Made by a program: the position numbers and the translations under genes. 64,000 bases of DNA from Longimicrobiales bacterium (lineage in GTDB: Bacteria; Gemmatimonadota; Gemmatimonadetes; Longimicrobiales; Gaopeijiaceae), in assembly GCA_963422615.1 (NCBI GenBank), contig OY730414.1, positions 1,346,302 to 1,410,301 of the forward strand, given 5' to 3'. This document shows positions 1 to 15,156 of this stretch, piece after piece (positions within the stretch are counted from its first letter, which is position 1; each line of letters begins with the position of its first letter). The notes beneath the pieces were generated by a model. That model made no database searches. It had not been told where the DNA came from and saw nothing but the letters and a program-made list of their open reading frames with translations.

Positions 1-2881
1 GCGAACTTCGGCCAGATGCTCGGCTACCACGTTCCCGGCCGCGTAAGCCTCCGCCTTGCCCTCGAGTTCCCGTTCGATCCAAGCACACTCCGGGCGGCCC
101 AGAATCTCATCCGAACGGGGTTCGTCCGCACGAAGCGGCCGCAGATCAAGGTAGGGAGCGTACCGCACATGTCCCCGCACCCCGCGGGGTCCGAGGTCAA
201 GGTAGATCATCCGCTTCGAGATCACCCGGTAGGCCCCGTTTCGTGTCGGACGCCCGTCGTGGATGGCATGCTCAAGGTAGAGAAGAACGTGTGGCTCCAG
301 CCCATGGTCCCGGTCGTCCACCAACACCGCGCCGCGCTTCAGAAGCATGCGGTTCTGTTCAAGGGTTAGGTCGAGCACGGCATCGAGAAGCGGGTGTCCG
401 GGACAAACGAAGGCCGCGCTAGGCCGTCCGGGTGGGGTGATGAGGGACTTCTCGAATGCAATGCGCTCGTAGCGGACCAGAACCGGCTCTCTGGCTCCCA
501 GTTCGGCGGCACGCCTTCGCACCACCGCGGGAACCCGGGAGATCTGATACCGCCGCGGCTCCCGCTCCCTGGCGGTGCCACCCAGGTGTTTGAAGGCCTC
601 CAGGAAGAACGACTCGATGAAGTGGGGCTGTAAGCGTCTTGCGTCGGCGCGTTCCATCTCCTCTCGGACCGCTTGCAACCGACGGGTGTCCATCGTGTCC
701 TGCGCCAGCGCGTCGGCGAGCATGAGCCCCCTGAGTCGGTCTCGGTCCAGGGCGTCGCTAACGACCGTGTCGAGATGGGCCCGGATCTCCGGTTGTTCCC
801 CAAAACGAATCGCTTTTACGAGCAGGTCCTGCAAAGATCGGCCCTCAAACTGGACCTGTCCAAGCACGTCGAACACCTGACCGCCCAACGCTTGGCGCTC
901 GGCCTCCAGCTTGTCCAGCAGGGTCTGATAGACCTTGCCCTCCCGGGTGTCCTGGGCGAGGAGATTCCAAAGGTGGCACACTTCGGTCTGGCCGATACGA
1001 TGGATGCGTCCGAAGCGCTGCTCCAGCCGGTTGGGATTCCACGGCAGATCGTAGTTTACCATCAGGTGGGCCCGCTGCAGGTTGATCCCTTCGCCTGCGG
1101 CGTCGGTGGCGACAAGCACCCTGACCTCGGGATCGTGGCGAAACGCCTCCTGGGCCTCAAGCCGATCGCGCCGGTTCAGTCCCCCATGAATCACAACCAC
1201 GGCCTCCGGCCGCCCGATCCACGTGGTGATCCGCTCCAGTAGGTAGCTGAGGGTGTCCTTGTGCTCGGTGAAAACGACAAGTTTCTGGTCCTGCGAGGGC
1301 TGTGGAGGCGGGACTTCCCCGGCTCCATAGTCGACCTCGGGCTCCTTGACCGGGGGGGCTAAACCCGAGGGGGCGAAGAGCTTGTCCAGGAGACCTGCCA
1401 GCTCCCGCCATTTCGTGTCGTCGCTTCGCTCCAGTACATTGCGGGCCAGACGCTCAAGGCTACGCAGAGTATCGATTTCCGCGCGCAGTTCGACTCTTGA
1501 CCGGGCGGCGGTTGCCTGGCCCAACACGTCGGCTTCCGCTGCCTCAACTTCGTCCTCGGGGGCGTCTTCCAAGCTCTCAAGGTCTTCCAGCTCCAACGCC
1601 CGACTTCCGAAGAAGGGAGAGGAGTCGGTGGTCTTGCCGTGGGGGAGCTCCTCCAGCCCCCGAAGTCGAGCCTGCAGGCGTTCACGGCGCCGTCCCAGGG
1701 AGCGGAAGATCGCCTGGGGCGAAGAGGCAAGACGACGTTGGAGGATCATCAACGCAAACCCGATGGTCGTCCGCTTCTTGCCGCCCAGCTTCTCTGCGCG
1801 ATCGAACTCCTGCTTCACGTACCGGGTAACCGCCTTGTACAGGATGGCCTCGGCCTCGGAGAGTCGGTAGGGAACGGTGTAGGCCCGGCGCATGGGAAAG
1901 AGCGGCGTACCGTCGAACTTCAGCAGCTTTTCCTTGACCATGCGGCGCATCAGGTCCGACGTATCGGAACGGTGAACGCCCGCGCGGAAGCGGCCCTCGA
2001 ACCGATCCCCGTCAAGGAGCGCCATGAAGAGCTGAAAATCGTCCTCCTTGCCGTTGTGGGGCGTGGCCGTCATGAGGAGGAAGTGGCGGGTGAGGCGACC
2101 AAGGAGCTGGCCCAACCGGTAGCGTTTCGTGTACTTGACCTTCCGGCCGGAATACGTCGCCGACATCTTGTGGGCTTCGTCACAGACCACGAGGTCCCAG
2201 CGGCAGTCGGGGGCCTGGAGCAGTTCTTGGACCTCCTCGTTGCGAGAGAGCATGTCGAGGCGCGCGATCACCAAGTCGTTCTTCTCGAACCAGTTGTCCG
2301 GGCGCGCCGCCAATCGCTCCTGGGGGGTATAGACGACAAAGGAAAGTTGGAAGCGGCGTTTCAGCTCCTCCTGCCACTGCTCGGCGAGGCTGCCGGGACA
2401 TACGACCAGACAGCGCTCGAGGTCGCTGCGGGCAATCAGCTCCTTCATGAGCAGCCCCGCCATGATCGTCTTGCCGCTGCCGGGATCGTCGGCGAGGAGG
2501 AAGCGGAGGGGCTGGCGGGGCAGCATGGATTCGTAAACGGCCGTGATCTGATGAGGCAGGGGTTCGACGAGTGAGGTGTGCACCGCCAGCAGGGGATCAA
2601 AGAGGTGGGCGAGGTGGATACGCTGGGCCTCGGAGACCAGCCTGAAGCGGGAGCCGTCAGCGTCGAAGGTCCAGGGACGGGCCTGGGAAGGGACTTCGAA
2701 GCGGTCCTCATCGATCCGGTGAACCACCTTAGGAGCCCGTCCCGCCCGATGCGATCCTGTAGGTGACCTGGATGACCTGGACACCCCGAGATCCCAGCCA
2801 CGTCGTGCCGACGACGGTGACCGGCCCGTCCGGGCGAATCCCTTCCACTTGGACGTGCGACTGAAGGTCTTCAAGCTTCAT
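1..2881 (-). CDS. SNF2/DEAH-box superfamily-2 helicase; C-terminus lies beyond window start; 5' end ambiguous (ATG at 2881 in one frame; GTG 2784 / TTG 2874 in the helicase-core frame)
   Basis: Minus-strand translation (frame with codon tops = 0 mod 3) is open from ~2880 to position 1. It contains Walker A LLADDPGSGKTIMAG, DEAH box LVVCDEAHKMSAT, motif III LLMTATPHNG, and a C-terminal helicase domain with DLPWNPNRLEQRFGRIHRIGQT (motif VI). The plus-strand ORFs 673-1242 and 1639-2574 are antisense artefacts. Confidence 0.85.
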
Positions 2882-3170
2882 GAGGCGATGGATCCGTTCT
2901 GACCCGGGAGGTCCCAAGGGCGGGCACGGTGGATAAGGGGGGGATGCGGAGAATTGACCGGATTCACCGCACCCATGAAGATAAAGCATGTGGGGGCCAG
3001 CCAACTTAAGTTCGCCCCGCCCTCGGACTCGGAGTATCTGCTATGAAGTCCTTCGGAGCATCATCCATCGTCAGGTCTTCCGCTTCGCGTTGGAACCCGA
3101 CGGAGGCCGGCGCTTTCGTGGCGGGCCTCACCCAGCCCCCGCTTCCAACCGCGACAGCAAGGGGCGTGCG

Positions 3171-6011
3171 GTGAGCAACATCCCCGGCGGGGATCGCCGA
3201 TGGCCGTACCCCGGCGCCCGTTGGTGGAAGTTCGACTTTCACACCCATACCCCGGCCTCGAACGACTACGGCAAGGGATCCGAGCAGGAGACCCTGCGAA
3301 ACGTTACACCGCGCGATTGGTTGCTCGGTTTTATGGGCGCCGAAGTGGATTGCGTAGCGGTGACGGACCACAACTCGGGGGAGTGGATCGACAAGCTCAA
3401 AGCGACCCTCGTGGAGATGGAGGAGGAGAACCATCCGGACTTTCGGCCCCTGTACTTATTCCCAGGCATGGAAATCACCGCCAACGGCGGCATCCATGTC
3501 CTTGCGATATTCGACCCCGGCAAAGGATCCGCGGATATTGCAACGCTGCTCGGAGCCGTTGGATATCGAGGCGACCGCGGTGCCAGTGACGAAGTGGCGG
3601 ATTCGGCGCCCAAAGGTGTCGTGAAAGCCATCGGCGAAGCCGGCGGAATCCCTATTCTCGCCCATGTGGATGGTCCGTCAGGCGCCTGGAAGTTGCCCGG
3701 CAATACCCTGACGCCGCTGTTCGATCTCGACGATCTTTTCGCGATGGAGGTGGTCGATCCTGCGAAAGAGAAACCCGAGCTGTATCGTCAACGCAAGCTC
3801 GCCTGGGCGGAAGTGCTTGGCTCCGACTCGCATCATCCCGGCGGACCGGCAGGGTCTCGTTTCCCCGGCTCGCACTACACCTGGATCAAGATGGCGGAAC
3901 CCTCGCTGGAAGGACTGCGCTTGGCCTTGCTGGACGGCGGAGGCTTCTCGGTCCGGCGCAGCGACGATCCGGAGCCTTTCAATCCCTTTGCGCTGCCCAC
4001 GCATCGCATCGAAGCCATCGAGATTGACGACGCGCGGTACATGGGGCGCGGTAAGCCGGCCAGTCTTGGGTTCAGCCCGTGGCTCAACGCCCTGGTGGGC
4101 GGGCGAGGCACAGGCAAGTCCACGGTCATCCATGCACTGCGGCTGGCGGCGAGACGCGAGAATGAATTGGCGAATCTGGAAGCACGCAGCGAGCCTCGTC
4201 TGACCTTCGAGCGATTCAATCGCGTGCCCTCGCATCGCACGGACGAGGGTGGCTTGCAGGGTTCGACGAAAATTCGGTGTACCATGATGCGCGACGGCGT
4301 TCGTCATCGCCTTCGCTGGCGGCAGGACGGCGTCGGCACGGTCGTGGAAGACGATGCGGGCAACGGCGATTGGAAACCCTCACTTGCTCAGACGGTGACG
4401 CCGGAGCGTTTTCCGGTCCGCATATTCAGCCAGGGACAGATCGCCGCCCTGGCCGGCGAGAACCAGCAGGCGCTGTTGCAGGTGATCGACGAGGCGGCCA
4501 AGACAAGCAGGCTGCATGAAGACCTCAAAGAGGCCCGAAAAGCATTCTTCGCATCAAGGACGCGGATCCGGGCGCTCGACGGCAAGCTGGGCCGATGGGA
4601 CGATCTCGTCGTGCAGCGACAGGATACGGAGCGCAAGTTGAAGCGTTTCCAGGATGCAGGACACTCCATGATCCTGACCGCTTACGGGCGCCGTCGCCGT
4701 CAGCGTACGGAAACGGATCGGCAGCTCGAGGCATCGGAGGAGATCGCCGATCGCATTGAAGCGCTGGCGGCAGGACTTGAAGCCGAAGACCTGCCTGATG
4801 GACTGTTCGACGAAGGATCGGAAGAAGATCGGCAAGCGGTTTCGATCATGGCAGCGCTGGCCGCCGGCGTGCGCATGGCAGCCCGGGACCTGCGTTACGC
4901 CGCCAAGCGCCTGCGAGGAATTGCCGAAGCACAGCGCAAGGAGTTGACCAATAGCATGTGGCAGTCAGCCGTGGAACAGGCGACGCAGGGCTACACTGCG
5001 TTGGTCGAGACGCTGCGCAGTGTAGGCATTACCGACCCGAACGAGTACGGCCGCTTGGTACAGGACCGGCAACGGCTCGATAGGGAATCGAAGGCTCTGG
5101 AGTCACTGCAGGCGGAACGGGATCGGCTGACGGAGCAATCCGGGGGACAACTGCGGAAGGTCCTGGAGGCCCGCCGCGCCATAAGCGCCGCCCGCGAGAA
5201 TTTCCTGTCCGGAACGCTCGCCCGGAACCGCTTCGTGCGCATCCGACTTCGGACCTACGGCGACGGTCCGCGAGTCATCGAACGTTCCTTGCGGGAGGCG
5301 TTGAGGATTCTTGACGACCGCTTCCGGGACGACATCCTCGTGATGGACGTGGATCGCCCGGCCAATGGGTGGGTTGCGGAACTTCTTGCAGACTTGCCGG
5401 AAGGTACAACAGAACGGTGCTCCGAGGTCGAAAGCCGCATCGAGCACCTCAAACAGCGAATCAGCCGGGCCTGTTCAGGCAGCGGTGATTTCGGCGGACG
5501 CCTCAACAACTATTTCCAGCGTGAATTCAACCGGCATCCCGAGCTGCTGGACAACATGCTGACCTGGTTTCCAGAAGACGGATTATGGGTCGAGTACAGC
5601 CGCCGGGGCGACGGCACGGACTTTCAGCCTATCAATCAAGCGTCGGCGGGTCAGCGGTCGGCGGCAATGCTGGCGTTTCTGCTTGCGCACGGCGAGGAGC
5701 CTCTGGTACTAGATCAGCCGGAAGACGATCTCGACAACCACTTGATCTACGACCTGGTCGTGCGCCAGATGCGGGAGAACAAGCTCAGGCGGCAGATCAT
5801 CGTGGTGACGCACAACCCGAACATCGTCGTGAACGGAGATGCCGAGATGCTGCATGCACTCGGTTTCCAGCGAGGCCAGTGTCGGGTCGTGCAGTCGGGA
5901 TCGTTGCAGGAAGAAACGATGCGCGAGGAAGTCTGCCGGGTGATGGAAGGTGGACGCGAAGCCTTCGAGCGCCGTTATCGTCGCTTGGGGCGGGAGCCGG
6001 CTCGTGTTTGA
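3171..6011 (+). CDS. PHP-domain phosphoesterase fused to SMC/Rad50-like ABC ATPase (Ppl-like defence protein); maximal ORF starts at ATG 2988
   Basis: PHP motifs WWKFDFHTHTPAS, AVTDHNS, PGMEIT, GSDSHHP. Walker A LVGGRGTGKST, Q-loop FSQGQ, signature-like QASAGQRS, Walker B LVLDQPEDDLD, H-loop VVTHNPN, with a ~300-aa helical insert between Walker A and signature (Rad50/SbcC-like). GTG 3171 is in frame and preceded by AAGGGG. The 61 aa upstream of it (from ATG 2988) are low-complexity. Confidence 0.8.
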   Translation: MSNIPGGDRRWPYPGARWWKFDFHTHTPASNDYGKGSEQETLRNVTPRDWLLGFMGAEVDCVAVTDHNSGEWIDKLKATLVEMEEENHPDFRPLYLFPGMEITANGGIHVLAIFDPGKGSADIATLLGAVGYRGDRGASDEVADSAPKGVVKAIGEAGGIPILAHVDGPSGAWKLPGNTLTPLFDLDDLFAMEVVDPAKEKPELYRQRKLAWAEVLGSDSHHPGGPAGSRFPGSHYTWIKMAEPSLEGLRLALLDGGGFSVRRSDDPEPFNPFALPTHRIEAIEIDDARYMGRGKPASLGFSPWLNALVGGRGTGKSTVIHALRLAARRENELANLEARSEPRLTFERFNRVPSHRTDEGGLQGSTKIRCTMMRDGVRHRLRWRQDGVGTVVEDDAGNGDWKPSLAQTVTPERFPVRIFSQGQIAALAGENQQALLQVIDEAAKTSRLHEDLKEARKAFFASRTRIRALDGKLGRWDDLVVQRQDTERKLKRFQDAGHSMILTAYGRRRRQRTETDRQLEASEEIADRIEALAAGLEAEDLPDGLFDEGSEEDRQAVSIMAALAAGVRMAARDLRYAAKRLRGIAEAQRKELTNSMWQSAVEQATQGYTALVETLRSVGITDPNEYGRLVQDRQRLDRESKALESLQAERDRLTEQSGGQLRKVLEARRAISAARENFLSGTLARNRFVRIRLRTYGDGPRVIERSLREALRILDDRFRDDILVMDVDRPANGWVAELLADLPEGTTERCSEVESRIEHLKQRISRACSGSGDFGGRLNNYFQREFNRHPELLDNMLTWFPEDGLWVEYSRRGDGTDFQPINQASAGQRSAAMLAFLLAHGEEPLVLDQPEDDLDNHLIYDLVVRQMRENKLRRQIIVVTHNPNIVVNGDAEMLHALGFQRGQCRVVQSGSLQEETMREEVCRVMEGGREAFERRYRRLGREPARV

Positions 6012-7281
6012 CAGCGTCGAGGAACTGCTCGACAAGATAAGACTCGGCGAAGACACGTTCCTGGAGTGCAAGGAAGTACGTTTTGCGGGACAGAAGGTCA
6101 GCGGCCCTCGCCGTGATTCGCTCGCGGACGAGCTCGCCGCCTTCGCCAACGGCCGAGGCGGTGTCTGCCTGCTGGGCGTGGAAGACGGCTCGCGTGAAAT
6201 CGTAGGCATCCCCGTTGACCGTCTCGATGTCGTGGAAGATTTCGTCCGTGAAGGTTGCAGCGATTCCGTGGATCCGCCTCTCGCGCCCGTGATCGAACGC
6301 ATCCAGCTACCTGCGACCACCGGGGAAGAGGTTGCGATCATCAAGATCGAGGTGAAACGCAGTCTGTTCGTACACCGCAGTCCGGGAGGCTATCTGCACC
6401 GGGTAGGCAGCGCCAAGCGCACCATGTCGTCCGAATACCTGGCCCGGCTGTTCCAGCAGCGCAGCCAGGCCCGGATGATCCGCTTCGACGAACAGGTTGT
6501 TCCCGACGCCAAGCCGGACGATCTGTCATCCGAGATCTGGAGGTCTTTTCGCACCCCGCTCACCAGGAATAAATCGGAAAGTCTGCTTGCAAAACTTCAT
6601 ATGGTGCGACCCGATATGGACGGTACGCCGAGGCCGACGGTGGCAGGTGTGCTCATGGCCTCTCCGGATGCCCGGAGATGGCTGCCCAATGCCTACATTC
6701 AGGCAGTCGCCTATCGCGGCACGACCGTCAGAGCCGATACCAGCGATCCCTACCAATTGGATGCCTCGGATATCTCCGGCCCATTGAACAATCAAGTGAT
6801 TCAAGCCTGCCAATTCGTGGCGAAGAACATGAAAGTGGCGGCATTCAAGCATCTAGGCCGCCTGGATCGACCACAGTTCGACATGGAGGCGGTGTTCGAG
6901 GCTGTAGTCAATGCCGTGGCCCACCGCGACTACTCGATCCATGGCTCGAAGATCAGGTTGAAGCTGTTCCGCAACCGTCTTGAAATCTACTCACCCGGTG
7001 CCATCTCCAACACGATGGGAGTGGAAGATCTGCCCCACCTGCAGGCCACTCGAAACGAGATCGTTACCAGTCTGCTCGCCAAGTGCCCCGTCCCGACGAA
7101 CGTACCGTGGCTGGAGACCGAGCGGCGCACCATGATGGACAGACGTGGCGATGGGGTGCCGGTGATCTTGAACAACAGCCTGGAACTGTCGGGGAGAGAA
7201 CCGGAGTATCGTTTGATCGGCGACGCCGAACTGCTGTTGACCATCTATGCGCCCCGAGATGCATCGGAGGAATTGACCTAG
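6004..7281 (+). CDS. AlbA_2 DNA-binding domain + HATPase_c_4 protein (divergent-AAA / Schlafen-like, often annotated RecG-like regulator)
   Basis: GTG 6004 overlaps the stop of the upstream gene (GTGTTTGA) with GGGAG 8 nt upstream. The N-domain VFDSVEELLDKIRLGEDTFLECKEV...ELAAFANGRGGVCLLGVEDG is typical of AlbA_2. The C-terminal region AVFEAVVNAVAHRDYS is typical of HATPase_c_4. The maximal ORF from ATG 5950 overlaps the upstream gene by 60 nt. Confidence 0.7.
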   Translation: MFDSVEELLDKIRLGEDTFLECKEVRFAGQKVSGPRRDSLADELAAFANGRGGVCLLGVEDGSREIVGIPVDRLDVVEDFVREGCSDSVDPPLAPVIERIQLPATTGEEVAIIKIEVKRSLFVHRSPGGYLHRVGSAKRTMSSEYLARLFQQRSQARMIRFDEQVVPDAKPDDLSSEIWRSFRTPLTRNKSESLLAKLHMVRPDMDGTPRPTVAGVLMASPDARRWLPNAYIQAVAYRGTTVRADTSDPYQLDASDISGPLNNQVIQACQFVAKNMKVAAFKHLGRLDRPQFDMEAVFEAVVNAVAHRDYSIHGSKIRLKLFRNRLEIYSPGAISNTMGVEDLPHLQATRNEIVTSLLAKCPVPTNVPWLETERRTMMDRRGDGVPVILNNSLELSGREPEYRLIGDAELLLTIYAPRDASEELT

Positions 7282-7329
7282 GCCGCTTCCGACTTGGCCG
7301 TCGGCGCATCCCGGCCTGCTGGTGGCGGG

Positions 7330-9615
7330 TCATGCCGCTTTTTGGTATGAGGACCCGTTCCGGTCGGTTCGAAGCTGGCCGCTCCTTCTCGGATGGATTC
7401 CGACGAAAAAGAACCAAGAGAACCGCTCGTAGCGAGTGTATATGGCCATGCCGGGGCCGATGGCGGCCTGGGCCAAGTCCACCGGCGCGATGCCGCCGGA
7501 CCGGAGGATGCGCAGGGCCGGGGGGAGTTCGGTACGGAGCGTTTCCAGGAACTCCCGGCGGGTGGCCAGGGGCAGGTCTTCGGCTCGCTTTCGGCAGGCC
7601 AGGACGATGCTGGAGGCGAGGGCGTTGGTGCCCATGCCCACCATCCGGTTGGTCAGCTCGGTCCGCATCGGCCAGGTGCCGTTTATGGCGAGTCCCGATT
7701 CGATGACGGCGCCCAGGAAGGTCTCCCAGCCCGTGGAGGCGGTTCCGGATTTTCTTCTTGTTTCGGACTGCTTGAAGGCGTAGTAGATGGTGACCGGGAA
7801 CCCCGGGTGGGCCTGCTCCGCAAGCCGCTCGAGAGCCCGGGTCATTCCGCTCAGGAAGAAGCGTTCCGCCGCCTGTTTGCTGCCGTGTCGGTAGGGCGTG
7901 GCGACCAGCTCATCGGCCTTGGGCACAGCAAGCGTGGCGAACAGGTCCGGGAACATCGGCCGCAGGGAGCGGCGCAGCCAGACGTAGAAGAAGTCCGACA
8001 GGTCCGCGTAGCCGATGTTGTCGTAATAGGGCGGGTCGGTGGAGATGACTTCGGGACCGGCCGCCGCCTGGCTCGTTGCGTCAATCTGTGTCGCCATGCC
8101 GGCTGGGCCGCGAGGAAACGCGCCCAGGGCCTTTGCCGCCAATGCGATCTGGCCGGTCCAGTTGCCGCTTGATCCGGAAAATGGGTTGGCTTCCGCAAAA
8201 TCCCACATCATCGGAATAGCCTGCCTGCCAAACGTGTTTCGAATTGCCTCTCCCGGGACATTCCAGCTACAGATGCTTGACCAGTGGTTGGCACACTTGT
8301 CGACTGCGAACGCCAGATACAGGGACACCGCCTGGGCATAGGCCGTCGCGCCCCTGCCACCGTCGCGCAGCGGCTTGCCGTCGTCAGGGAAGCCGGTGGC
8401 GACAGCGTCTCGGCGGATCCGCTCTCGCGCTTCCCCCACCAGATCGGAAAAGGTCGTCAGGGCAACCAGCTGGCGGGGCGTGAAGAGGTCGGCGAAAGCG
8501 GGAAGACCGTAGTTGGGAGTCTTGAAGTCTCGCGGATTGTCGGGCAACGGTATGTCCGGCTTCCAAGTCGGATTCGCTTGGCGAGCGATCGTCTCATGCT
8601 CCGCCGACGGTGACAGATACACCCTTCCCCGAACTCCCGCCGCCACCACTGCCATCAACCGCGCACTCATGCGCCCAGCTTTGCCTTCCCCTCGAATGTG
8701 CTCGTACGGCAGACCCACTCCTGACATGAGGCAGCGAAACGCGCGTCGTTTGCCGGCTGATGTCCCCCGTTTCGCCGCGTCCACATCCGGCGGCGTTCCC
8801 ACCTTCACCGTGAACCGGTATCCCTTCCCCTCGATCACCGGCTCGACGTACGCCTCCTTCCCCTTCTTCGTCGACAGCATCCACGTCGACGCCAGCGGCA
8901 CCTCCACATCCCCATACGCAGGGTTCGGACTCTTCACCGTCCGCGCCCACAACCACGCGATCACCGTCAGCTTCCGCCCCGCATACGGCTTCAGGTCCGG
9001 CCGCTCCCGCACCATCTCCGGCGTCACCTCGACCGGCGGATACAAATGCCCGATCCGCTTCGCCGCCTCCTCCCGCATCCAACCCCCGTACCGCCGCACG
9101 TCCTCCGCCAACCCCTGCGCCCCGGACCACGTCTTCTCAACCAGCGTCGCGTCCGCGCGCGCCTCCGAGTTCACCGGCCCCCGACCCGCAAACCTCGGCG
9201 GTACCTCGATCATCGCCTTGCAGATCAGCACCGCTACCGGATTCAGATCGCTCGCGTGCGACTCCAGCCCCAGCCGCTGTGCCTCCAACGGCAGCGCCCC
9301 ACCCCCCGCAAATGGATCGTGAAAAGCAGGCAACTTCTCGGAATCAAACAACTCCCTGGCCCTGGGATGATCCCCGTTCTCGGCACACGCCCGCCCCCAA
9401 CTCCGCCAGATCTCACTCCTAGCCTCTTCAAGCACCCTCTCGTTGTTCGTGTTCTCCCACCTCACCAACTCCTCAATCATCCGAAACAACCGCCCCCGCT
9501 CACGCCCTGCGGCGATCTTCCGCAGGAAACTCCCTCTCGTCTTCGCCGGCTTCATCCACCATCTGGCGTCACCTTGACCGGGCGGCGGCCAGCGGACGAT
9601 CCGTGCCCACCACAA
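7330..9615 (-). pseudogene. DUF1156-family N6-adenine DNA methyltransferase, partial inverted copy A (N-terminal domain decayed at 9620-9750; C-terminus truncated at repeat boundary ~7426)
   Basis: 761-aa ORF with MTase motif I DPFAGGG and motif [23 protein letters not shown]. It lacks the DUF1156 N-terminal [15 protein letters not shown] segment. Only a decayed remnant with a stop (RKKLIEV..., [16 protein letters not shown]) survives at 9620-9750. It diverges from copy B after ...AIYTRYE and so lacks the ~190-aa conserved C-terminus. Confidence 0.7.
7426..9590. repeat. Left arm of ~2.15-kb inverted repeat (DUF1156 gene body)
   Basis: Six-frame ORFs 8513-9322(+) and 12536-13345(-) are identical over 269 aa, and 8594-9130(-) equals 12728-13264(+) over 178 aa. 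9046-9675(+) and 11976-12812(-) are identical for ~150 aa. The outer part 7426-8500 matches 13350-14431 with scattered substitutions and indels. Confidence 0.9.
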
Positions 9616-10067
9616 GTGGAGTGTGCTCGGATGCCCAGTGCCGGATCGACTTCTCTCGCTTTGACGCCGCGTTGATCTACGACCTAGCGGAAGCCCGAGA
9701 CCTCAATCAGCTTCTTGCGTATCTGAACGGTAGTCACCTATGATGTTCACCCAGATGGATGGCCTTGAGATGCGGCCGGCCCGACGCAACATCGCATGGA
9801 ACTACGACTAGGCCCCATTCTGGCTTGGCCACTGGGAAGTGCGCAATCCTGGTTCATTTCGGGTAGAGCAGTGCGCATTCCCGGGGGCATGAGCGTCTGG
9901 CGGCGCCGTCGGCCGTCCTTGCCGATCTCCTCCACCGCTACAGGGCGGAGCAGATAAGGCGCCTCTGGTATTTCCGGATCGGATTCTTCCGCCTTGGATC
10001 ACACCGGGCGACGCGTTATGGGGTTCCGGACCTCCCGATTCCCCCTGCCCTCCAGAGGAGAAGTACG

Positions 10068-10970
10068 ATGTCCAATGGTTCCCTTGAAGGAAGGAAAGCC
10101 AACCGTAAGCCGGTGCTTTTGGAAACTGCTGGCCAAGAGGTATTCACCCGGCATGGGCAGCGTCTGGAAACCCAGCACGTTAACTGTAAACCGCCGGATA
10201 TCTTCAGGCAACATCAGATTCGGGCCCTCGGACCTTTCGCGGCCGACCCATTGAACGAGATCACGAGAGGAGAGGTTCGGCAGTGGTTCGGAACGCTGCA
10301 CCGAACACCGGCCGCGGGCAATCGCTCCCTTCCCGTTCTTTCCGTAATCTTGAGGGAGGCCGAGGCCTATGGATACCGGTCGGCCGAAAGCAATCCCTGT
10401 CGTCCACTTCGGCGGTACCGGGAGGTTGGGCGCAAGCGCTTTCTCAATGCGACAGAGATAAGGCGCCTAGGCAGAGTGCTTGCCGACCGACGGACCGCAT
10501 GGCCCCTTCAGGCGACACTTGTTCGTCTATTGCTGCTCACCGGCTGTCGGCAGAGCGAAGTGCGAACGCTCGAGTGGCACAACTATCGCGACGGACACCT
10601 ACATTTGCGCGACAGCAAAACGGGTCCACGGACGATTTGGCTGTCGTCAGCTGCACGGCGGGAACTGGGGGAACTGTCCCGAACGGGGCGCTTCGTGTTC
10701 CCTGCGCCGGATGGTGCAAGTCCCATGCCGACGGAAACGCTCTACCGCGCCTGGCGGCACCTGCGCCATGACGCGGGAATGCCCGGACTCCGGCTGCATG
10801 ACCTCCGGCACACGTACGCGAGTCTGGCCCTGCGTCGTGGGGAGACGGTGGTCGTGATCGGTCGGCTGCTGGGACACCGGGATCCGAACACCACACTCAA
10901 GTATACGCACTTTGGCTCGACGATCCTGCAGGAGGCCGCAGAAATCGTTACCCAAGCCTTGAAAGGGTGA
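10068..10970 (+). CDS. Tyrosine recombinase / phage-integrase family (XerC/D-like), intact
   Basis: Box I LLLTGCRQSEV, HDLRHTYASLA, and LLGHRDPNTTLKYTH with the catalytic Tyr. A GAGGAG RBS lies 7 nt upstream of the ATG. Confidence 0.85.
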   Translation: MSNGSLEGRKANRKPVLLETAGQEVFTRHGQRLETQHVNCKPPDIFRQHQIRALGPFAADPLNEITRGEVRQWFGTLHRTPAAGNRSLPVLSVILREAEAYGYRSAESNPCRPLRRYREVGRKRFLNATEIRRLGRVLADRRTAWPLQATLVRLLLLTGCRQSEVRTLEWHNYRDGHLHLRDSKTGPRTIWLSSAARRELGELSRTGRFVFPAPDGASPMPTETLYRAWRHLRHDAGMPGLRLHDLRHTYASLALRRGETVVVIGRLLGHRDPNTTLKYTHFGSTILQEAAEIVTQALKG

Positions 10971-10974
10971 CGCC

Positions 10975-11899
10975 ATGGCTCCGAACTTTGCCCGATTCGT
11001 TACGAACCCCTGGAGAACCGCCTGCTACAACCGATGCAAGCCTTCGACCCGAAAGCGCATGGACAGCGCGCTTCGCACCCAGCTTCTTCCCGTCTTTGGA
11101 TCTTTGCGTCTGGACGAAATCAACCGGGTGGCCGTGCTCCGGTGGTTCGACGGATACAGCCGAACCGCGCCGGCGGGTGCGAACCGTACCCTGGACATCC
11201 TGCGGCAGATCCTCAACTACGGCATCGAGTGTGGCCATTTGGAATCGAACCCGGCCTGCGGTGTAAAACGCAATCCCAGGCCGAAGGTCACTCGTTTTCT
11301 CTCGAAAGACGAAGTGGCCCGTGTCCACGCAACCATTGACGCCCACCGGGGCCGCGGCTCCCGGTCGCCAAGCAAGCCGACATCATTCGCCTGTTGCTGT
11401 GGACGGATGCCGCAAGGGCGAAATCCTGAATCTGCAGTGGAAGGAAGTGGACGGCAGCGTACTGCGTTTGACCGACAGCAAGACGGGACCCAGAACCGTC
11501 CTTCTTGAGCAAGGAGGCGCAAGCCGTACTTGGCCGCCAGCCGCCTAGCGAAGGTCCCTACGTCTTCCCATCCCTTCTTGATCGTCGCGTCCCGTTCAAG
11601 CGAGCTTTCCCTATGGCGAAAGGTCCGACGCGAAGCCCGAATCCAAGATGTTCGGCGGTGCACACCTCCGGCATACGTTCGCCAGCTACGCCGCCCATGT
11701 GCCGGTGAATCCCGCTGGCCCGTCGTTTGCAGAAAGCTCGGCTTACGGTTGGCCGCCTTCCTTCATGGCCCTACGCTATATTCACATTGATGATCGGGGG
11801 CCAAAGAAGCCGCAGAGCGGATTGGCAGGGACATCGCCGAGCTACTGGACCCGAATGCGGAAGAATCGCGATTCCGGAACGCATCAACAAGGCGCCTAG
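10975..11899 (+). pseudogene. Second tyrosine recombinase (paralog of 10068-10970) disrupted by at least 3 frameshifts
   Basis: The N-domain (VLRWFDGYSRTAPAGANRTLDILRQILNYG) is in ORF 10975-11508. Box I CRKGEILNLQW...LTDSKTGPRTVLL is in the frame of 11321-11548. GPYVFPS is in 11505-11708. HLRHTFASYAA is in 11648-11899. Confidence 0.75.
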
Positions 11900-11961
11900 G
11901 CTCCGCGCCTGTATCTGTCGGTGACCCAAGGTAGATCGGCAAGGACGTCGACGAGCCGACG

Positions 11962-14900
11962 GTGGCGCCAGACGCTCATACCCACCCCTGCTTAAACGAA
12001 ATGAACCAGGATAAATCACCCGGTGAAAACACGCAAGAAGCTGATCGAAGTCGCACTGCCCAGTGGATTCCAATCAATGTAGCGGGGGCGCTAGAGAAGT
12101 CGATTCGGCACGGGCACCCGTCAACGTTGCACCTGTGGTGGTCACGCAAGCCACTGGCCGTAGCCCGGGCGGTAATTTTCGCCCAGGTCGTAGATGACCC
12201 GTCCGAGTACGTCAACGCGTTACTGTCGGACCCGGTGACGCTTCGGGAAGCCCAACGGATACTCGTCCGCAGCGCCGAACGGTCAAGGGACGCCAGGCGG
12301 CGTATGCAAGCCGGGAAGACGAGAGGGAGGCCCTGCGGGAGATCGCCGCCGAGCGTGAGCGGGGGCGGTTGTTTCGGATGATTGAGGAGTTGGTGAGGTG
12401 GGAGAACACGAACAACGAGAGGGTGCTTGAAGAGGCTAGGAGTGAGATCTGGCGGAGTTGGGGGCGGGCGTGTGCCGAGAACGGGGATCATCCCAGGGCC
12501 AGGGAGTTGTTTGATTCCGAGAAGTTGCCTGCTTTTCACGATCCATTTGCGGGGGGTGGGGCGCTGCCGTTGGAGGCACAGCGGCTGGGGCTGGAGTCGC
12601 ACGCGAGCGATCTGAATCCGGTAGCGGTGCTGATCTGCAAGGCGATGATCGAGGTACCGCCGAGGTTTGCGGGTCGGGGGCCGGTGAACTCGGAGGCGCG
12701 CGCGGACGCGACGCTGGTTGAGAAGACGTGGTCCGGGGCGCAGGGGTTGGCGGAGGACGTGCGGCGGTACGGGGGTTGGATGCGGGAGGAGGCGGCGAAG
12801 CGGATCGGGCATTTGTATCCGCCGGTCGAGGTGACGCCGGAGATGGTGCGGGAGCGGCCGGACCTGAAGCCGTATGCGGGGCGGAAGCTGACGGTGATCG
12901 CGTGGTTGTGGGCGCGGACGGTGAAGAGTCCGAACCCTGCGTATGGGGATGTGGAGGTGCCGCTGGCGTCGACGTGGATGCTGTCGACGAAGAAGGGGAA
13001 GGAGGCGTACGTCGAGCCGGTGATCGAGGGGAAGGGATACCGGTTCACGGTGAAGGTGGGAACGCCGCCGGATGTGGACGCGGCGAAACGGGGGACATCA
13101 GCCGGCAAACGACGCGCGTTTCGCTGCCTCATGTCAGGAGTGGGTCTGCCGTACGAGCACATTCGAGGGGAAGGCAAAGCTGGGCGCATGAGTGCGCGGT
13201 TGATGGCAGTGGTGGCGGCGGGAGTTCGGGGAAGGGTGTATCTGTCACCGTCGGCGGAGCATGAGACGATCGCTCGCCAAGCGAATCCGACTTGGAAGCC
13301 GGACATACCGTTGCCCGACAATCCGCGAGACTTCAAGACTCCCAACTACGGTCTTCCCGCTTTCGCCGACCTCTTCACGCCCCGCCAGCTGGTTGCCCTG
13401 ACGACCTTTTCCGATCTGGTGGGGGAAGCGCGAGAGCGGATCCGCCGAGACGCTGTCGCCACCGGCTTCCCTGACGACGGCAAGCCGCTGCGCGACGGTG
13501 GCAGGGGCGCGACGGCCTATGCCCAGGCGGTGTCCCTGTATCTGGCGTTCGCATTGACAAGTGTGCGGATCACTGGTCAAGCATCTGTTCGTGGGATGTC
13601 GGGCTACGTCAAGATTCGAAACACGTTTGGCAGGCAGGCTATTCCGATGATGTGGGATTTTGCGGAAGCCAACCCATTTTCCGGATCGAGCGGCAACTGG
13701 ACCGGCCAGGTCGCATGGGTCGCAAAGGCCCTGGGCGCGTTCCCTCGCGGCCCAGCCGGCATGGCGACACAGATTGACGCAACGAGCCAGGCGGCGGCCG
13801 GTCCCGAAGTCATCTCCACCGACCCACCCTACTACGACAACATCGGCTACGCGGACCTGTCGGACTTCTTCTACGTCTGGCTGCGCCGCTCCCTGCGGCC
13901 GATGTTCCCGACCTGTTCGCCACGCTTGCTGTGCCCAAGGCCGATGAGCTGGTCGCCACGCCCTACCGCCACGGCAGCAAACAGGCGGCGGAGCGCTTCT
14001 TCCTGAGCGGAATGACCCGGGCGCTGGCTCGACTTGCGGAGCAATCCCACCCGGCCTTCCCGGTTACCATCTACTACGCCTTCAAGCAGTCCGAAACAAG
14101 AAGAAAATCCGGAACCGCCTCCACGGGCTGGGAGACCTTCCTGGGCGCCGTCATCGAATCGGGACTCGCCATAAACGGCACCTGGCCGATGCGGACCGAG
14201 CTGACCAACCGGATGGTGGGCATGGGCACCAACGCCCTCGCCTCCAGCATCGTCCTGGCCTGCCGAAAGCGAGCCGAAGACCTGCCCCTGGCGACCCGCC
14301 GGGAGTTCCTGGAGACCCTCCGCACCGAACTCCCCCCGGCCCTGCGCATCCTCCGGTCCGGCGGCATCGCACCGGTGGACTTGGCCCAGGCCGCCATCGG
14401 CCCCGGCATGGCCATATACACTCGCTACGAGAAGGTGCTCGACGCCAGTGGGAAGCCGATGACGGTTCGCGAAGCCCTGGCGCTCATCAACCAGATCCTC
14501 GACGAGTCGCTGGCGGAGCAGGAAGGGGAATTCGACCGAGCCACCCGCTGGGCACTTGCCTGGTTCGAGGAACACGGCTTCGAGGAAGGAGATTTCGGCG
14601 GGGCCGAAACGCTTTCGAAAGCCAAGAACACCAGTATCGCCGGACTGGTAAAAGTCGGCATCCTGGCGTCCCGTGCCGGCCGAGTCCGTCTGCTGCGCCC
14701 TTCCGAGTTGCCCGACGACTGGGACCCGTCTGCTACCGACCCGCCGACCGTCTGGGAAGTGGTTCACCAGCTCATCCGAGCGCTGGAAAGCGAGGGCGAA
14801 ATGGCTGCGGCAAAACTTGTCGAACGCCTAGGCAGCGTCATCGGTAACGCCCGTGACCTCGCGTACCGCCTCTACTCCATCTCAGACCGAAAGAAGAGGG

Positions 14901-15001
14901 CCGCGGAAGCCCTGCAGTACAACGGCTTGGCCGGGAGCTGGACCGAGATCAAGAACCAGGCCGCAAAAGCTCAGCAGACCGAATTCGAGATGGATTCGTG
15001 A
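11962..15001 (+). pseudogene. DUF1156-family N6-adenine DNA methyltransferase copy B; complete N- and C-termini but frameshifted near 12060, 13560-13620 (two compensating indels) and ~13905
   Basis: ORFs 11962-12381 ([46 protein letters not shown]), 12369-14006 and 13931-15001 together cover the full DUF1156 length including the conserved C-terminus (...YNGLAGSWTEIKN). Relative to copy A, a 1-nt deletion (cccggacctg to cccgacctg) shifts the frame after [13 protein letters not shown]. Confidence 0.7.
12310..14431. repeat. Right arm of the ~2.15-kb inverted repeat
   Basis: Reverse complement of 7426-9590; the central >1 kb is 100% identical. Confidence 0.9.
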
Positions 15002-15156
15002 ACAGTACTGCCCGCAACCGCCCAAACGGTCGGGCTGGCAAGACTTGTCAGCCTGATGGATGAGGGCGCGTTCACCGAGCTTTCAGGCGATACTTGACGG
15101 CATTGACCGCCTTGGCTCGTCCCCTTCACCCGCCAACCAAGACTGACTGACCCAAT

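What the first reader, a model, noticed from the sequence alone, without database searches (positions are those of the whole stretch)
3171..7281. Ppl-like PHP-Rad50-type ATPase translationally coupled to an AlbA_2/HATPase_c_4 protein, divergent from an SNF2 helicase
The 946-aa protein fuses a PHP phosphoesterase domain (HxH, DH, E, H and GSDxH motifs all present) to an ABC/SMC-like ATPase head with a long helical insert. Functionally this is a single-chain SbcCD/Mre11-Rad50 analogue, and it resembles the single-gene anti-phage protein Ppl. Here its stop overlaps (GTGTTTGA) the start of an AlbA_2 + HATPase_c_4 protein. Its promoter region is shared divergently with a >900-aa SNF2/DEAH helicase. 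A three-gene PHP-ATPase / AlbA_2-ATPase / SNF2-helicase arrangement is not a described defence system, and the coupling suggests that they work together.
Basis: partly seen in the sequence, partly recalled or inferred. Interest (0 to 1): 0.7.

Follow-up and report, generated by a model that had tools for sequence, protein, structure and literature searches.

The report
Ppl–Schlafen gene pair inside Hma
This is a conserved two-gene bacterial immunity cassette (a Ppl/TrlF DNA exonuclease-ATPase plus a Schlafen-type RNase-ATPase) nested inside a damaged Hma defence system; the neighbouring helicase belongs to Hma, not to a new three-gene system.

Summary
The sequence features are real. There is a 946-aa PHP plus SMC/Rad50-like ABC ATPase (3171-6011). 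Its stop overlaps by 8 nt the GTG start of a 425-aa AlbA_2 + HATPase_c_4 protein (6004-7281). The three-gene interpretation fails. The divergent SNF2 helicase is HmaA of an Hma system, whose HmaB (two inverted copies around a tyrosine recombinase) and HmaC lie at 7330-18486. The pair is therefore an Hma-embedded cassette, which is a published phenomenon. The conserved unit is the two-gene pair. In 80 species-level genomes with a Ppl homologue, the partner lies directly downstream in 60 of 78 testable loci. About half of these overlap and the rest start 1-7 nt after the stop. They span about a dozen phyla, and the two proteins co-vary (r = 0.81). Most of these loci have no Hma; several sit between pglX and pglZ of BREX. 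NCBIfam calls the large protein a TrlF-family ATPase. The pair has the same architecture as trlF-trlG of the Photorhabdus temperature restriction locus (2020). The partner is a "Schlatpase" (Schlafen RNase + GHKL ATPase) with intact Ex4ExK and E-x3-N motifs. Verdict: a new member of a known kind. The modest new point is that Ppl, catalogued as single-gene, is mostly a coupled Ppl-Schlafen pair.

The parts
3171..6011 (+). TrlF/Ppl-family protein, 946 aa. It has an N-terminal PHP phosphoesterase (about residues 15-270), then an SMC/Rad50-like ABC ATPase head split by a coiled-coil insert of about 240 residues (446-682).
   Evidence: PADLOC Ppl E 7.8e-131 over residues 15-939. NCBIfam TrlF_fam_ATP 569 bits against a cut-off of 350; NCBIfam Ppl_antiphage 519 bits against a cut-off of 1000. 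Foldseek matches JetC, MukB, SMC and Rad50, plus the RNase AM PHP domain. Motifs are conserved.
6004..7281 (+). TrlG-like 'Schlatpase', 425 aa: a Schlafen/AlbA_2 nuclease domain (16-141) plus a GHKL-type ATPase (PF13749, 314-406).
   Evidence: Pfam AlbA_2 2.5e-14 and HATPase_c_4 2.6e-15. Ex4ExK is present as E16...E21.K23, and the GHKL N-box as E299xxxN303; these residues are invariant or nearly so in 25 homologues. Foldseek matches 3LMM at 1.9e-18, then SLFN14/13/11/5, then PDK and histidine kinases.
6004..6011 (+). 8-nt overlap GTGTTTGA between the TrlF/Ppl stop and the partner's start (translational coupling). GGGAG lies at 5991-5995.
   Evidence: Read directly. In homologous loci the partner start overlaps the Ppl stop by 7-17 nt in 30 of 58 cases (8 nt in 22) and lies 1-7 nt after the stop in 27.
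1..2881 (-). hmaA, the SNF2/DEAH helicase of the host Hma system. It runs off the left end of the window and has an apparent frameshift near 2735-2745.
   Evidence: PADLOC HmaA 1299 bits, model positions 48-936 of 1176. Residues from 2732-2881 hit HmaA model positions 2-45 in another frame.
7330..9702 (-). hmaB1, a partial copy of the Hma methylase. It covers model positions 77-782 of 967. The C-terminus is missing beyond 7425 and the N-terminal DUF1156 region is degraded.
   Evidence: PADLOC HmaB 1154 bits; alignment to hmaB2.
10068..10970 (+). 300-aa Xer-like tyrosine recombinase lying between the two hmaB copies. It is followed by an integrase N-terminal fragment at 10975-11508.
   Evidence: Pfam Phage_integrase 4.3e-17; Phage_int_M and SAM_3 in the fragment; weak NCBIfam XerA/XerC-like matches.
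11962..15001 (+). hmaB2, a full-length Hma methylase copy broken into three frames: 11962-12381 (DUF1156), 12369-14006 and 13778-15001.
   Evidence: PADLOC HmaB model positions 87-607 and 602-960; DUF1156 2.6e-21; a 1-nt deletion at about 13910 relative to hmaB1.
15151..18486 (+). hmaC, an intact DUF499 AAA+ ATPase with an N-terminal Swt1-like HEPN domain.
   Evidence: PADLOC HmaC 1069 bits, model positions 2-941 of 941; Pfam HEPN_Swt1 1.8e-32 and DUF499 1.6e-27.
7426..14431 (.). Large inverted repeat formed by hmaB1 and hmaB2. The core, 8305-9526 against 12332-13553, is 1222 nt and 100% identical. The flanks are 97% identical. Weaker similarity extends inward to 9913 and 11955.
   Evidence: the repeat finder; pairwise alignment.

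Best explanation
The locus is a two-gene defence cassette of the TrlF/Ppl-TrlG type, sitting as a passenger inside a rearranged and probably decaying Hma system.

Gene 1 is a Ppl-family protein. It has a PHP metal-dependent exonuclease fused to an SMC/Rad50-like ABC ATPase with a coiled-coil insert.

Gene 2 is translationally coupled to gene 1 and encodes a Schlatpase, that is, a Schlafen-type RNase domain plus a GHKL ATPase.

Shown here: the identities of both genes, their intact catalytic motifs, the conserved overlap, their co-inheritance across phyla, and the independence of the pair from the SNF2 helicase.

Inferred mechanism:
- By analogy with E. coli Ppl, the large protein senses and attacks phage DNA 3' ends as a 3'-5' ssDNA exonuclease gated by nucleotide levels.
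- By analogy with RorSlfn5, RzAgo and Photorhabdus TrlG, the Schlatpase is a growth-arresting effector, most likely a tRNA anticodon-arm nuclease. Its activity would depend on ATP-driven oligomerisation.
- The Schlatpase is probably held in check or licensed by the ABC ATPase partner, as in other ABC-ATPase/effector pairs such as PARIS, Gabija, Septu and Lamassu.
- The result would be DNA degradation plus translational shut-off (abortive infection).

Hma merely hosts the cassette.
For: Identity.
- PADLOC Ppl E 7.8e-131; NCBIfam TrlF family 569 bits against a cut-off of 350.
- The structure model matches SMC, JetC and Rad50 heads and the RNase AM PHP domain.
- The partner has AlbA_2 and PF13749, and matches 3LMM, SLFN proteins and histidine-kinase folds.
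- Ex4ExK and E-x3-N are conserved. These are the motifs required for activity in the published systems.

Pairing.
- The partner lies directly downstream in 60 of 78 testable species-level loci, at 33-74% Ppl identity and across about a dozen phyla.
- Overlap or a 1-7 nt spacing is the rule.
- Paired loci span the whole Ppl tree, including its deepest branches.
- Pairwise distances of the two proteins correlate, Pearson 0.81 over 58 loci.
- In the reverse direction, 47 of 70 testable metagenome loci with a partner homologue have Ppl directly upstream.
- The distant Yersinia ruckeri TrlF, whose partner is only 26% identical, has the same overlapping arrangement.

Independence from the helicase.
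- L001 (91% identical) has no Hma. L002, L005, L030, L041, L055 and L063 sit between pglX and pglZ of BREX. L029, L031, L033 and L035 sit between hmaB and hmaC.

Function.
- E. coli Ppl is a nucleotide-gated ssDNA 3'-5' exonuclease (review PMC12904381).
- In Photorhabdus, more than 30 temperature-tolerant mutants all mapped to trlG, and the operon causes growth arrest.
- Bacterial Schlafens cleave tRNA (PMC13056530).
Against: Both genes can live alone:
- 18 of 78 Ppl loci lack the partner, including the enterobacterial clade, and hundreds of enterobacterial plasmids carry a solo copy.
- E. coli Ppl is reported to work as a single gene.
- 23 of 70 close partner homologues lack Ppl and sit next to other defence genes. 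They are as similar to the Ppl-linked copies as the linked copies are to each other, 60% in both cases.

In Photorhabdus no suppressor mutation fell in trlF, so TrlG toxicity may not need TrlF. In the Nat Microbiol screen, only the DUF262 and Ig-like Schlafen fusions gave defence, not the HisKinase class to which this partner belongs.

The window protein scores below NCBI's narrow Ppl equivalog cut-off (519 against 1000). Pfam does not recognise its PHP domain.
Confidence: 0.6

Rival explanations
1. Two autonomous defence genes (a solo Ppl and a solo Schlatpase) often travel together and are co-embedded in the same hotspots, but they act independently.
For: Each occurs alone in a sizeable minority of loci. 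E. coli Ppl is functional alone. [quoted passage not shown] No trlF suppressors were found in Photorhabdus.
Against: A stop/start overlap or 1-7 nt spacing is kept across about a dozen phyla. The order and orientation are always the same. The distances of the two proteins correlate at r = 0.81. The same arrangement is seen in the very distant Yersinia/Photorhabdus branch. Independent neighbours would not keep translational coupling over such distances.
Confidence: 0.2
2. The cassette is an accessory effector module of its host systems. Hma and BREX lack a known nuclease and would recruit Ppl-Schlatpase as their killing arm. This is a weakened form of the first reader's idea.
For: The insertion sites recur and are very tight: hmaB-[pair]-hmaC with almost no intergenic space in L029, L031, L033 and L035, and pglX-[pair]-pglZ in at least 6 loci. 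On E. coli IncF plasmids a type I-like REase and MTase directly precede a solo copy.
Against: About 45 of 60 paired loci show neither Hma nor BREX within 10 kb, although my screen was crude. The closest relative, L001, is free-standing. Unrelated systems embed at the same sites. In this window the pair is on the opposite strand from hmaA and hmaB1, and the Hma genes are frameshifted or truncated while the pair is intact.
Confidence: 0.1
3. The AlbA_2/HATPase_c_4 protein is not an effector. It is a DNA/RNA-binding regulator or antitoxin-like inhibitor that controls the Ppl exonuclease. COG2865 proteins are often annotated as HTH transcriptional regulators.
For: Source annotations read 'predicted HTH transcriptional regulator'. 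In Photorhabdus a trlG point mutant is more virulent than the operon deletion, which suggests interplay between the gene products.
Against: Loss of trlG relieves growth arrest instead of causing toxicity. The nuclease motif Ex4ExK and the ATPase motif E-x3-N are invariant or nearly so. This protein has no C-terminal HTH: the Pfam domains end at residue 406 of 425.
Confidence: 0.07
4. One reading: a novel three-gene system of PHP-ATPase, AlbA_2-ATPase and SNF2 helicase that shares a divergent promoter.
For: The genes are adjacent, with a 290-nt divergent intergenic region. A few other loci have an HmaA-like helicase within 10 kb.
Against: The helicase is HmaA, with its HmaB and HmaC partners present. 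In other Hma-embedded cases the pair lies between hmaB and hmaC on the same strand, not next to hmaA. Most paired loci lack any such helicase. The helicase here carries a frameshift. No sigma-70-like promoter was found in the intergenic region.
Confidence: 0.03

Closest known systems
TRL (temperature restriction locus) operon trlR-trlF-trlG of Photorhabdus laumondii (Hapeshi et al. 2020, bioRxiv 10.1101/2020.06.02.129163 / PMC7554251)
   Same: The two-gene core is the same: a large 'histidinol-phosphatase'-annotated PHP-ATPase (TrlF), followed immediately by an AlbA_2 + HATPase_c_4 protein (TrlG). The window protein passes NCBIfam's TrlF-family cut-off. In the Yersinia relative the two genes also overlap.
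   Different: There is no trlR-like small regulator upstream here. The Yersinia TrlG relative is only 26% identical to the window partner, and its TrlF scores only 119 bits on the PADLOC Ppl model, against 436 bits for the window protein. The window pair therefore belongs to the Ppl-proximal branch. The published phenotype is temperature-dependent growth arrest, not phage defence.
Ppl, the single-gene anti-phage system (PADLOC PDLC02208; NCBIfam NF042955; mechanism summarised in PMC12904381)
   Same: Full-length homology (E 7.8e-131) and the same PHP + ABC ATPase architecture and motifs.
   Different: The catalogued and tested Ppl is a single gene, and E. coli copies have no partner. This one has a translationally coupled Schlatpase. 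It falls below NCBI's Ppl equivalog cut-off (519 against 1000).
Prokaryotic Schlafen nucleases: the pSlfn-HisKinase class (PMC13056530) and the 'Schlatpase' supradomain (bioRxiv 10.64898/2026.05.29.728809)
   Same: The AlbA_2 Schlafen domain carries Ex4ExK and is joined to a PF13749 GHKL ATPase with the E-x3-N motif. It is a stand-alone protein of about 420 aa, which is the commonest form.
   Different: In the text I could read, those papers report no conserved partner and do not mention Ppl or TrlF. Here the protein is operon-coupled to a PHP-ABC ATPase.
Hma system with embedded defence genes (Payne et al. 2021 and 2024)
   Same: HmaA, HmaB and HmaC are all recognisable, and foreign defence genes lie between hma genes.
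   Different: The Hma here is rearranged. It has two inverted hmaB copies around a recombinase, with frameshifts in hmaA and hmaB2. The cassette is on the opposite strand, between hmaA and a truncated hmaB. In other genomes the order is hmaB-pair-hmaC.
SbcCD / Mre11-Rad50 and ABC-ATPase defence pairs (PARIS AriA/B, Gabija, Septu, Lamassu, Wadjet JetC)
   Same: An SMC/Rad50-like head with a coiled-coil insert (foldseek matches to JetC, MukB and Rad50). Weak HMM matches to AriA, LmuB, GajA and PtuA. A nuclease is combined with an ABC ATPase.
   Different: The nuclease has a PHP fold and is fused in cis, whereas Mre11/SbcD is a calcineurin-like subunit. There is no CxxC zinc hook. The coiled coil is far shorter than that of Rad50.

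Membership tests
Ppl (anti-phage, single gene) | Full-length match to the family HMM | tested here: met
   PADLOC PDLC02208 E 7.8e-131, 436 bits, residues 15-939 on model positions 4-892 of 894.
Ppl (anti-phage, single gene) | Score above NCBIfam's curated equivalog cut-off (NF042955, 1000 bits) | tested here: not met
   519 bits, below 1000. E. coli copies are also named TrlF family by PGAP.
Ppl (anti-phage, single gene) | PHP phosphoesterase domain with its metal ligands | tested here: met
   No Pfam PHP hit. The model matches RNase AM PHP (9etk, 7ug9) and Pol III PHP. H24/H26, D66-H67, E101, H109, H165 and D219/H221 are conserved.
Ppl (anti-phage, single gene) | Acts as a single gene with no dedicated partner | tested here: not met
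   8-nt overlap with the downstream Schlatpase gene. The partner is present in 60 of 78 homologous loci.
Ppl (anti-phage, single gene) | NTP-inhibited ssDNA 3'-5' exonuclease; protects against phage | not testable with these tools
   Known only from the review statement in PMC12904381.
TrlF-TrlG (TRL operon) | TrlF-family ATPase by NCBIfam NF045780 (cut-off 350) | tested here: met
   569 bits, residues 15-940 on model positions 2-944 of 944.
TrlF-TrlG (TRL operon) | AlbA_2 + HATPase_c_4 gene immediately downstream in the same operon | tested here: met
   The arrangement matches that described and seen in Y. ruckeri.
TrlF-TrlG (TRL operon) | Small regulator trlR (about 79 aa) next to the operon | tested here: not met
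   There is no plausible small ORF in 2881-3171. The Burkholderia plasmid has a 67-aa RHH-like ORF upstream.
TrlF-TrlG (TRL operon) | Direct sequence orthology to the Photorhabdus proteins; temperature-dependent growth arrest | not tested
The Yersinia relative's TrlG is 26% identical to the window partner.
Schlatpase / pSlfn-HisKinase | Schlafen AlbA_2 domain with the catalytic Ex4(E/D)xK motif | tested here: met
   PF04326 2.5e-14. E16-x4-E21-x-K23, with E21 invariant and E16 and K23 conserved in at least 90% of sequences.
Schlatpase / pSlfn-HisKinase | GHKL ATPase (PF13749) with a catalytic Glu and a Mg-binding Asn spaced E-x3-N | tested here: met
   PF13749 2.6e-15. E299 and N303 are invariant. 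The fold matches PDK and histidine kinases. The RzAgo equivalents are E314 and N318.
Schlatpase / pSlfn-HisKinase | tRNA cleavage; ATP-driven oligomerisation | not testable with these tools
   Published for RorSlfn5 and RzAgo only.
Hma system | HmaA helicase, HmaB methylase and HmaC ATPase in one locus | tested here: met
   PADLOC HmaA 1299 bits, HmaB 1154, 806 and 525 bits, HmaC 1069 bits.
Hma system | Intact reading frames (a functional system) | tested here: not met
   hmaA has a frameshift near 2740. hmaB2 is split into three frames. hmaB1 is truncated at both ends. Sequencing error cannot be excluded.
SbcCD / Mre11-Rad50 | Calcineurin-like (Mre11/SbcD) nuclease and a zinc hook at the coiled-coil apex | tested here: not met
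   The nuclease has a PHP fold. There is no CxxC anywhere in the protein. Only the ABC head and coiled coil resemble Rad50/SMC.

The most novel reading that the evidence does not exclude
The coupled Ppl-Schlatpase pair is the ancestral and majority form of the Ppl/TrlF family, not the solo gene in today's defence catalogues. It works as a dual-nuclease abortive-infection system. The PHP-ABC ATPase detects phage DNA ends or nucleotide depletion. It then licenses the Schlafen tRNase to shut down translation. On this reading, the Photorhabdus 'temperature restriction' phenotype is heat-triggered autoimmunity of this phage-defence system.
Probability: 0.35. Interest if true: 0.6.

Novelty: new member of a known kind. 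Interest (0 to 1): 0.4.

Why it matters
Defence catalogues (PADLOC, NCBIfam, and reviews) treat Ppl as a single-gene system, and mechanistic work has used a solo E. coli copy. The census here suggests that about three quarters of species-level Ppl/TrlF homologues carry a translationally coupled Schlafen-type nuclease-ATPase.

That result links three separate literatures: Ppl, bacterial Schlafens/Schlatpases, and the Photorhabdus temperature restriction locus. It gives a concrete, testable model of a DNA-exonuclease plus tRNase pair. It also gives the most common bacterial Schlafen architecture (HisKinase/GHKL) a candidate sensor partner; members of that class did not protect when tested alone.

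For this window specifically, the result is mostly a correction. The 'novel three-gene system' is a known kind of cassette embedded in a known host system.

Tried and rejected
- Pfam search for a PHP domain, on the whole protein and on the N-terminal 290 aa at E<=10: no hit. The PHP assignment had to come from the structure model.
- Sequence and profile searches of the PDB for a solved Ppl: only SMC, AriA and ABC heads were found, and no Ppl structure.
- Exact-sequence look-up of the window's own partner protein P0121, to identify the source genome: not on record.
- Search for an alternative conserved partner in the 18 partnerless Ppl loci: none. Downstream genes were TauD, AAA_21, SbcD, HsdR, RecD2, BrxB, an SNF2 helicase and unknowns.
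- Search for the partner family on viral contigs: nothing.
- Search for a trlR-like ORF upstream of the pair: none.
- Literature searches for a link between Ppl and Schlafen, or for later work on TrlG: none in the library. The primary Ppl mechanism paper is not in the library; I saw only the review statement.
- The first 'TrlF' search was wasted on TRLFS spectroscopy papers.
- I considered that the hmaB inverted repeat might be an assembly fold-back artefact. I rejected this as the sole explanation, because identity drops from 100% to 97% with indels and then to 74-90%, and the two outer ends differ.
- I could not reconstruct a simple single-inversion history from the canonical order hmaA-hmaB-pair-hmaC to the order seen in the window.

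Full report
**1. What is in the sequence**

The window has about 64% G+C. The plus strand carries two long ORFs at 2988-6011 and 5950-7281. Homologues begin at the position of GTG 3171, which has AGGGG 6 nt upstream, giving a 946-aa protein. The closest relative, P0001, is 944 aa.

The second gene starts at GTG 6004 and encodes 425 aa. A 100%-identical public protein, P0121, has exactly that length. Read directly, the stop of gene 1 (TGA, 6009-6011) lies inside GTGTTTGA, whose first three bases are the start of gene 2. GGGAG lies 8 nt upstream.

**2. The large protein**

- PADLOC's Ppl model matches end to end (E 7.8e-131), with weaker hits to AriA, LmuB, GajA and PtuA.
- Pfam sees only the ABC/SMC head (AAA_21, SMC_N, AAA_23). 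It does not see a PHP domain even at E<=10.
- An AlphaFold model built on 28 homologues (pLDDT 79) has an N-terminal alpha/beta barrel-like domain, a split ABC head, and a coiled coil of about 240 residues.
- Foldseek matches JetC, MukB, SMC and Rad50 heads (E 4e-9 to 1e-5). Separately, it matches the PHP domains of RNase AM (9etk, 7ug9) and Pol III (4jom).
- The PHP metal-ligand motifs are invariant or nearly so. So are Walker A, the Q-loop, the signature, Walker B and the H-loop.
- There is no CxxC zinc hook.
- NCBIfam places the protein in the 'TrlF family AAA-like ATPase' (569 bits against a cut-off of 350). It falls below the narrow 'anti-phage protein Ppl' equivalog (519 against 1000).

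**3. The small protein**

- Pfam finds AlbA_2 (Schlafen) at residues 16-141 and HATPase_c_4 (PF13749) at residues 314-406.
- The model (pLDDT 77) matches DIP2311 (3LMM, E 1.9e-18), then the nuclease domains of mammalian SLFN14/13/11/5/12, then pyruvate dehydrogenase kinases and histidine kinases.
- This is the 'pSlfn-HisKinase' class, the commonest bacterial Schlafen architecture at 34% (PMC13056530). It is also the 'Schlatpase' supradomain (bioRxiv 10.64898/2026.05.29.728809).
- The catalytic Ex4(E/D)xK motif is present as E16/E21/K23. The GHKL pair is present as E299/N303. In RzAgo the equivalents are E314/N318, where E314A abolishes ATP hydrolysis. All these residues are invariant or nearly so in 25 homologues.

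**4. The helicase and the real context**

The minus-strand ORF to the left is HmaA (PADLOC 1299 bits). To the right lie, in order:
- an HmaB methylase copy on the minus strand (7330-9702);
- a 300-aa tyrosine recombinase and an integrase fragment;
- a second HmaB on the plus strand (11962-15001);
- HmaC (15151-18486), which carries an N-terminal Swt1-like HEPN domain.

Housekeeping genes follow. The pair therefore sits between hma genes. Payne et al. report that 62.7% of 1,485 Hma systems contain embedded genes, of which 22.8% belong to known defence systems. [quoted passage not shown]

The Hma here looks damaged. The first 50 codons of hmaA are in another frame. hmaB2 is split over three frames, including a 1-nt deletion at about 13910 relative to hmaB1. 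hmaB1 lacks both ends. The pair and hmaC are intact. I cannot exclude sequencing errors.

**5. Is the pairing conserved?**

*Forward test.* An alignment of 28 Ppl homologues retrieved 80 species-representative genome loci, at 33-74% identity and from about a dozen phyla. By tblastn, the Schlatpase gene lies immediately downstream on the same strand in 60 of 78 loci that have room. In the 58 loci scored, its start overlaps the Ppl stop in 30 (by 8 nt in 22). It overlaps by one base in one locus and lies 1-7 nt after the stop in 27.

On a neighbour-joining tree, paired loci occupy every major branch, including the deepest. The 18 partnerless loci are scattered and include the Hafnia/Pectobacterium clade. 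Pairwise distances of the two proteins correlate (Pearson 0.81, 58 loci). The partner is the more conserved of the two (mean 55% against 42% identity). Partnerless loci show no alternative conserved neighbour.

*Reverse test.* Of 80 metagenome loci holding a partner homologue (57-69% identical), 47 have Ppl directly upstream, 10 have no room to tell, and 23 lack it. In ten of those 23 that I examined, the upstream gene was AIPR, a PglX-like methylase, a dGTPase-like HD protein (in two loci), ApeA, an alpha/beta hydrolase, another HATPase_c_4 protein, a transposase, or (in two loci) a protein with no Pfam match. Ppl-free copies are as similar to linked copies as the linked copies are to each other (60% in both cases). 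Seven of the 23 have a linked copy as nearest neighbour. The two genes are thus usually, but not obligatorily, together.

**6. Is the helicase part of it?**

No. The 91%-identical relative (L001) carries the pair, with the same 8-nt overlap, among metabolic genes. L002, L003, L005, L030, L041, L055 and L063 carry it between pglX and pglZ of type 1 BREX. L029, L031, L033 and L035 carry it packed between hmaB and hmaC on the same strand, and L058 has it after two direct hmaB copies. About 45 of the 60 paired loci show neither system in my crude screen. The pair is a mobile cassette that often lands inside larger defence systems.

**7. Already described under another name**

PGAP's name led to Hapeshi et al. 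(bioRxiv 10.1101/2020.06.02.129163; PMC7554251). In Photorhabdus laumondii the operon trlR-trlF-trlG causes growth arrest at 36 C. TrlF is annotated as a 'histidinol phosphatase'. TrlG is an AlbA_2 + HATPase_c_4 protein mis-annotated as RecG.

More than 30 independent temperature-tolerant mutants all mapped to trlG and none to trlF. Deleting the operon gives the same tolerance. The authors found full synteny elsewhere only in Vibrio anguillarum and on Yersinia ruckeri pYR3.

In Y. ruckeri plasmids I see TrlF followed by an overlapping 'RNA-binding domain' protein. That protein is only 26% identical to the window partner, and its TrlF scores just 119 bits on the PADLOC Ppl model. The PHP-ABC + Schlatpase pairing therefore spans the whole superfamily, and the window pair belongs to the Ppl-proximal branch. 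There is no trlR-like ORF here. A Burkholderia thailandensis plasmid has a 67-aa RHH-like ORF followed by the pair.

I found no paper in the library that connects TrlG with Schlafen defence, or Ppl with a Schlafen partner.

**8. How it probably works (inferred)**

According to a 2026 review, E. coli Ppl is a ssDNA 3'-5' exonuclease that is inhibited by NTPs bound to both its PHP and NTPase domains. It is activated when phage depletes nucleotides and homing endonucleases create 3'-OH ends (PMC12904381). Bacterial Schlafens cleave the tRNA anticodon arm on activation. [quoted passage not shown] TrlG is the toxic component in Photorhabdus.

I therefore propose a dual-nuclease abortive-infection module. 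The ABC/PHP protein senses and attacks phage DNA. The Schlatpase arrests translation. Coupling through a complex is suggested by the conserved overlap and the co-variation of the two proteins. That each gene can exist alone, and that no trlF suppressors were found, keeps the 'two autonomous neighbours' rival alive (about 0.2).

**9. Verdict**

The modestly new and testable point is the generality of the Ppl-Schlafen pairing.

Noticed in passing
window 7426-9913 and 11955-14431: The two hmaB copies form a large inverted repeat around a tyrosine recombinase gene. The core is 1222 nt and 100% identical, the flanks are 97% identical, and the inner ends are 74-91% identical. The identical core suggests ongoing gene conversion or recombination. 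A crossover in the arm 7426-7947 / 13911-14431 would join the hmaB1 stretch that lacks the 13910 frameshift to the full hmaB2 3' end upstream of hmaC, bypassing that frameshift only (the copy would still carry hmaB1's degraded N-terminal DUF1156 region). This could be a phase-variable (invertible) methylase switch, or simply a rearrangement scar.
   Followed up: partly
window 2732-2881, about 12290-12380, about 13910: There are apparent frameshifts in hmaA (after about codon 47, in a G-rich run) and at two places in hmaB2. The embedded pair (4.1 kb) and hmaC (3.3 kb) are intact. Either the host Hma is decaying around an intact passenger, or these are indel errors in the assembly.
   Followed up: partly
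window 15151-15650: HmaC carries an N-terminal Swt1-like HEPN domain (Pfam 1.8e-32) ahead of the DUF499 ATPase. The PADLOC HmaC model starts only at residue 168. The HmaC of L058 aligns over this extension, but those of L029, L033 and L035 align only from about residue 150-170. The HEPN fusion is therefore a variant feature of some Hma systems.
   Followed up: partly
window 10975-11508: An ORF with only the N-terminal SAM-like and central domains of a P4-type integrase lies directly after the intact 300-aa recombinase (10068-10970). It is probably a remnant of a second integrase or of a mobile element. A 38-nt imperfect inverted repeat (10098-10135 / 11716-11753) brackets the region.
   Followed up: no
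L002 14114-14461; L003 6814-7161: In the BREX-embedded version of the pair, a 115-aa ORF with no Pfam match follows the Schlatpase gene with a 4-nt overlap. It is a possible third component in that sub-lineage and is absent from the window.
   Followed up: partly
L169 (E. coli plasmid p779-2, NZ_CP086222.1 44254-51802): On many enterobacterial conjugative plasmids a solo TrlF/Ppl gene directly follows a type I-like REase (DEAD/DEAH) and an N6 methylase near the IncF replication region. In total, 475 plasmids have a hit and 117 have near full-length coverage at about 52% identity. This is a recurrent helicase-methylase-Ppl block without the Schlatpase.
   Followed up: partly
L058 58-2277 and 4730-8050: In the Latescibacterota relative (67% identical pair), two direct copies of hmaB lie upstream of the pair and HmaC lies downstream. 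Duplication of hmaB next to this cassette is therefore not unique to the window.
   Followed up: no
window 7321-7339: A terminator-like hairpin with a T-run lies in the 48-nt convergent gap between the Schlatpase stop (7281) and the hmaB1 stop (7330). Only 3 such sites were found in 5 kb, no more than in shuffled sequence.
   Followed up: no
L168 3386-7140 (Y. ruckeri plasmid): The TrlF of the Yersinia/Photorhabdus branch also hits the PADLOC candidate PDC-M49A over its N-terminal 300 residues. This suggests that other catalogued 'phage defence candidates' share this PHP-ATPase module.
   Followed up: no
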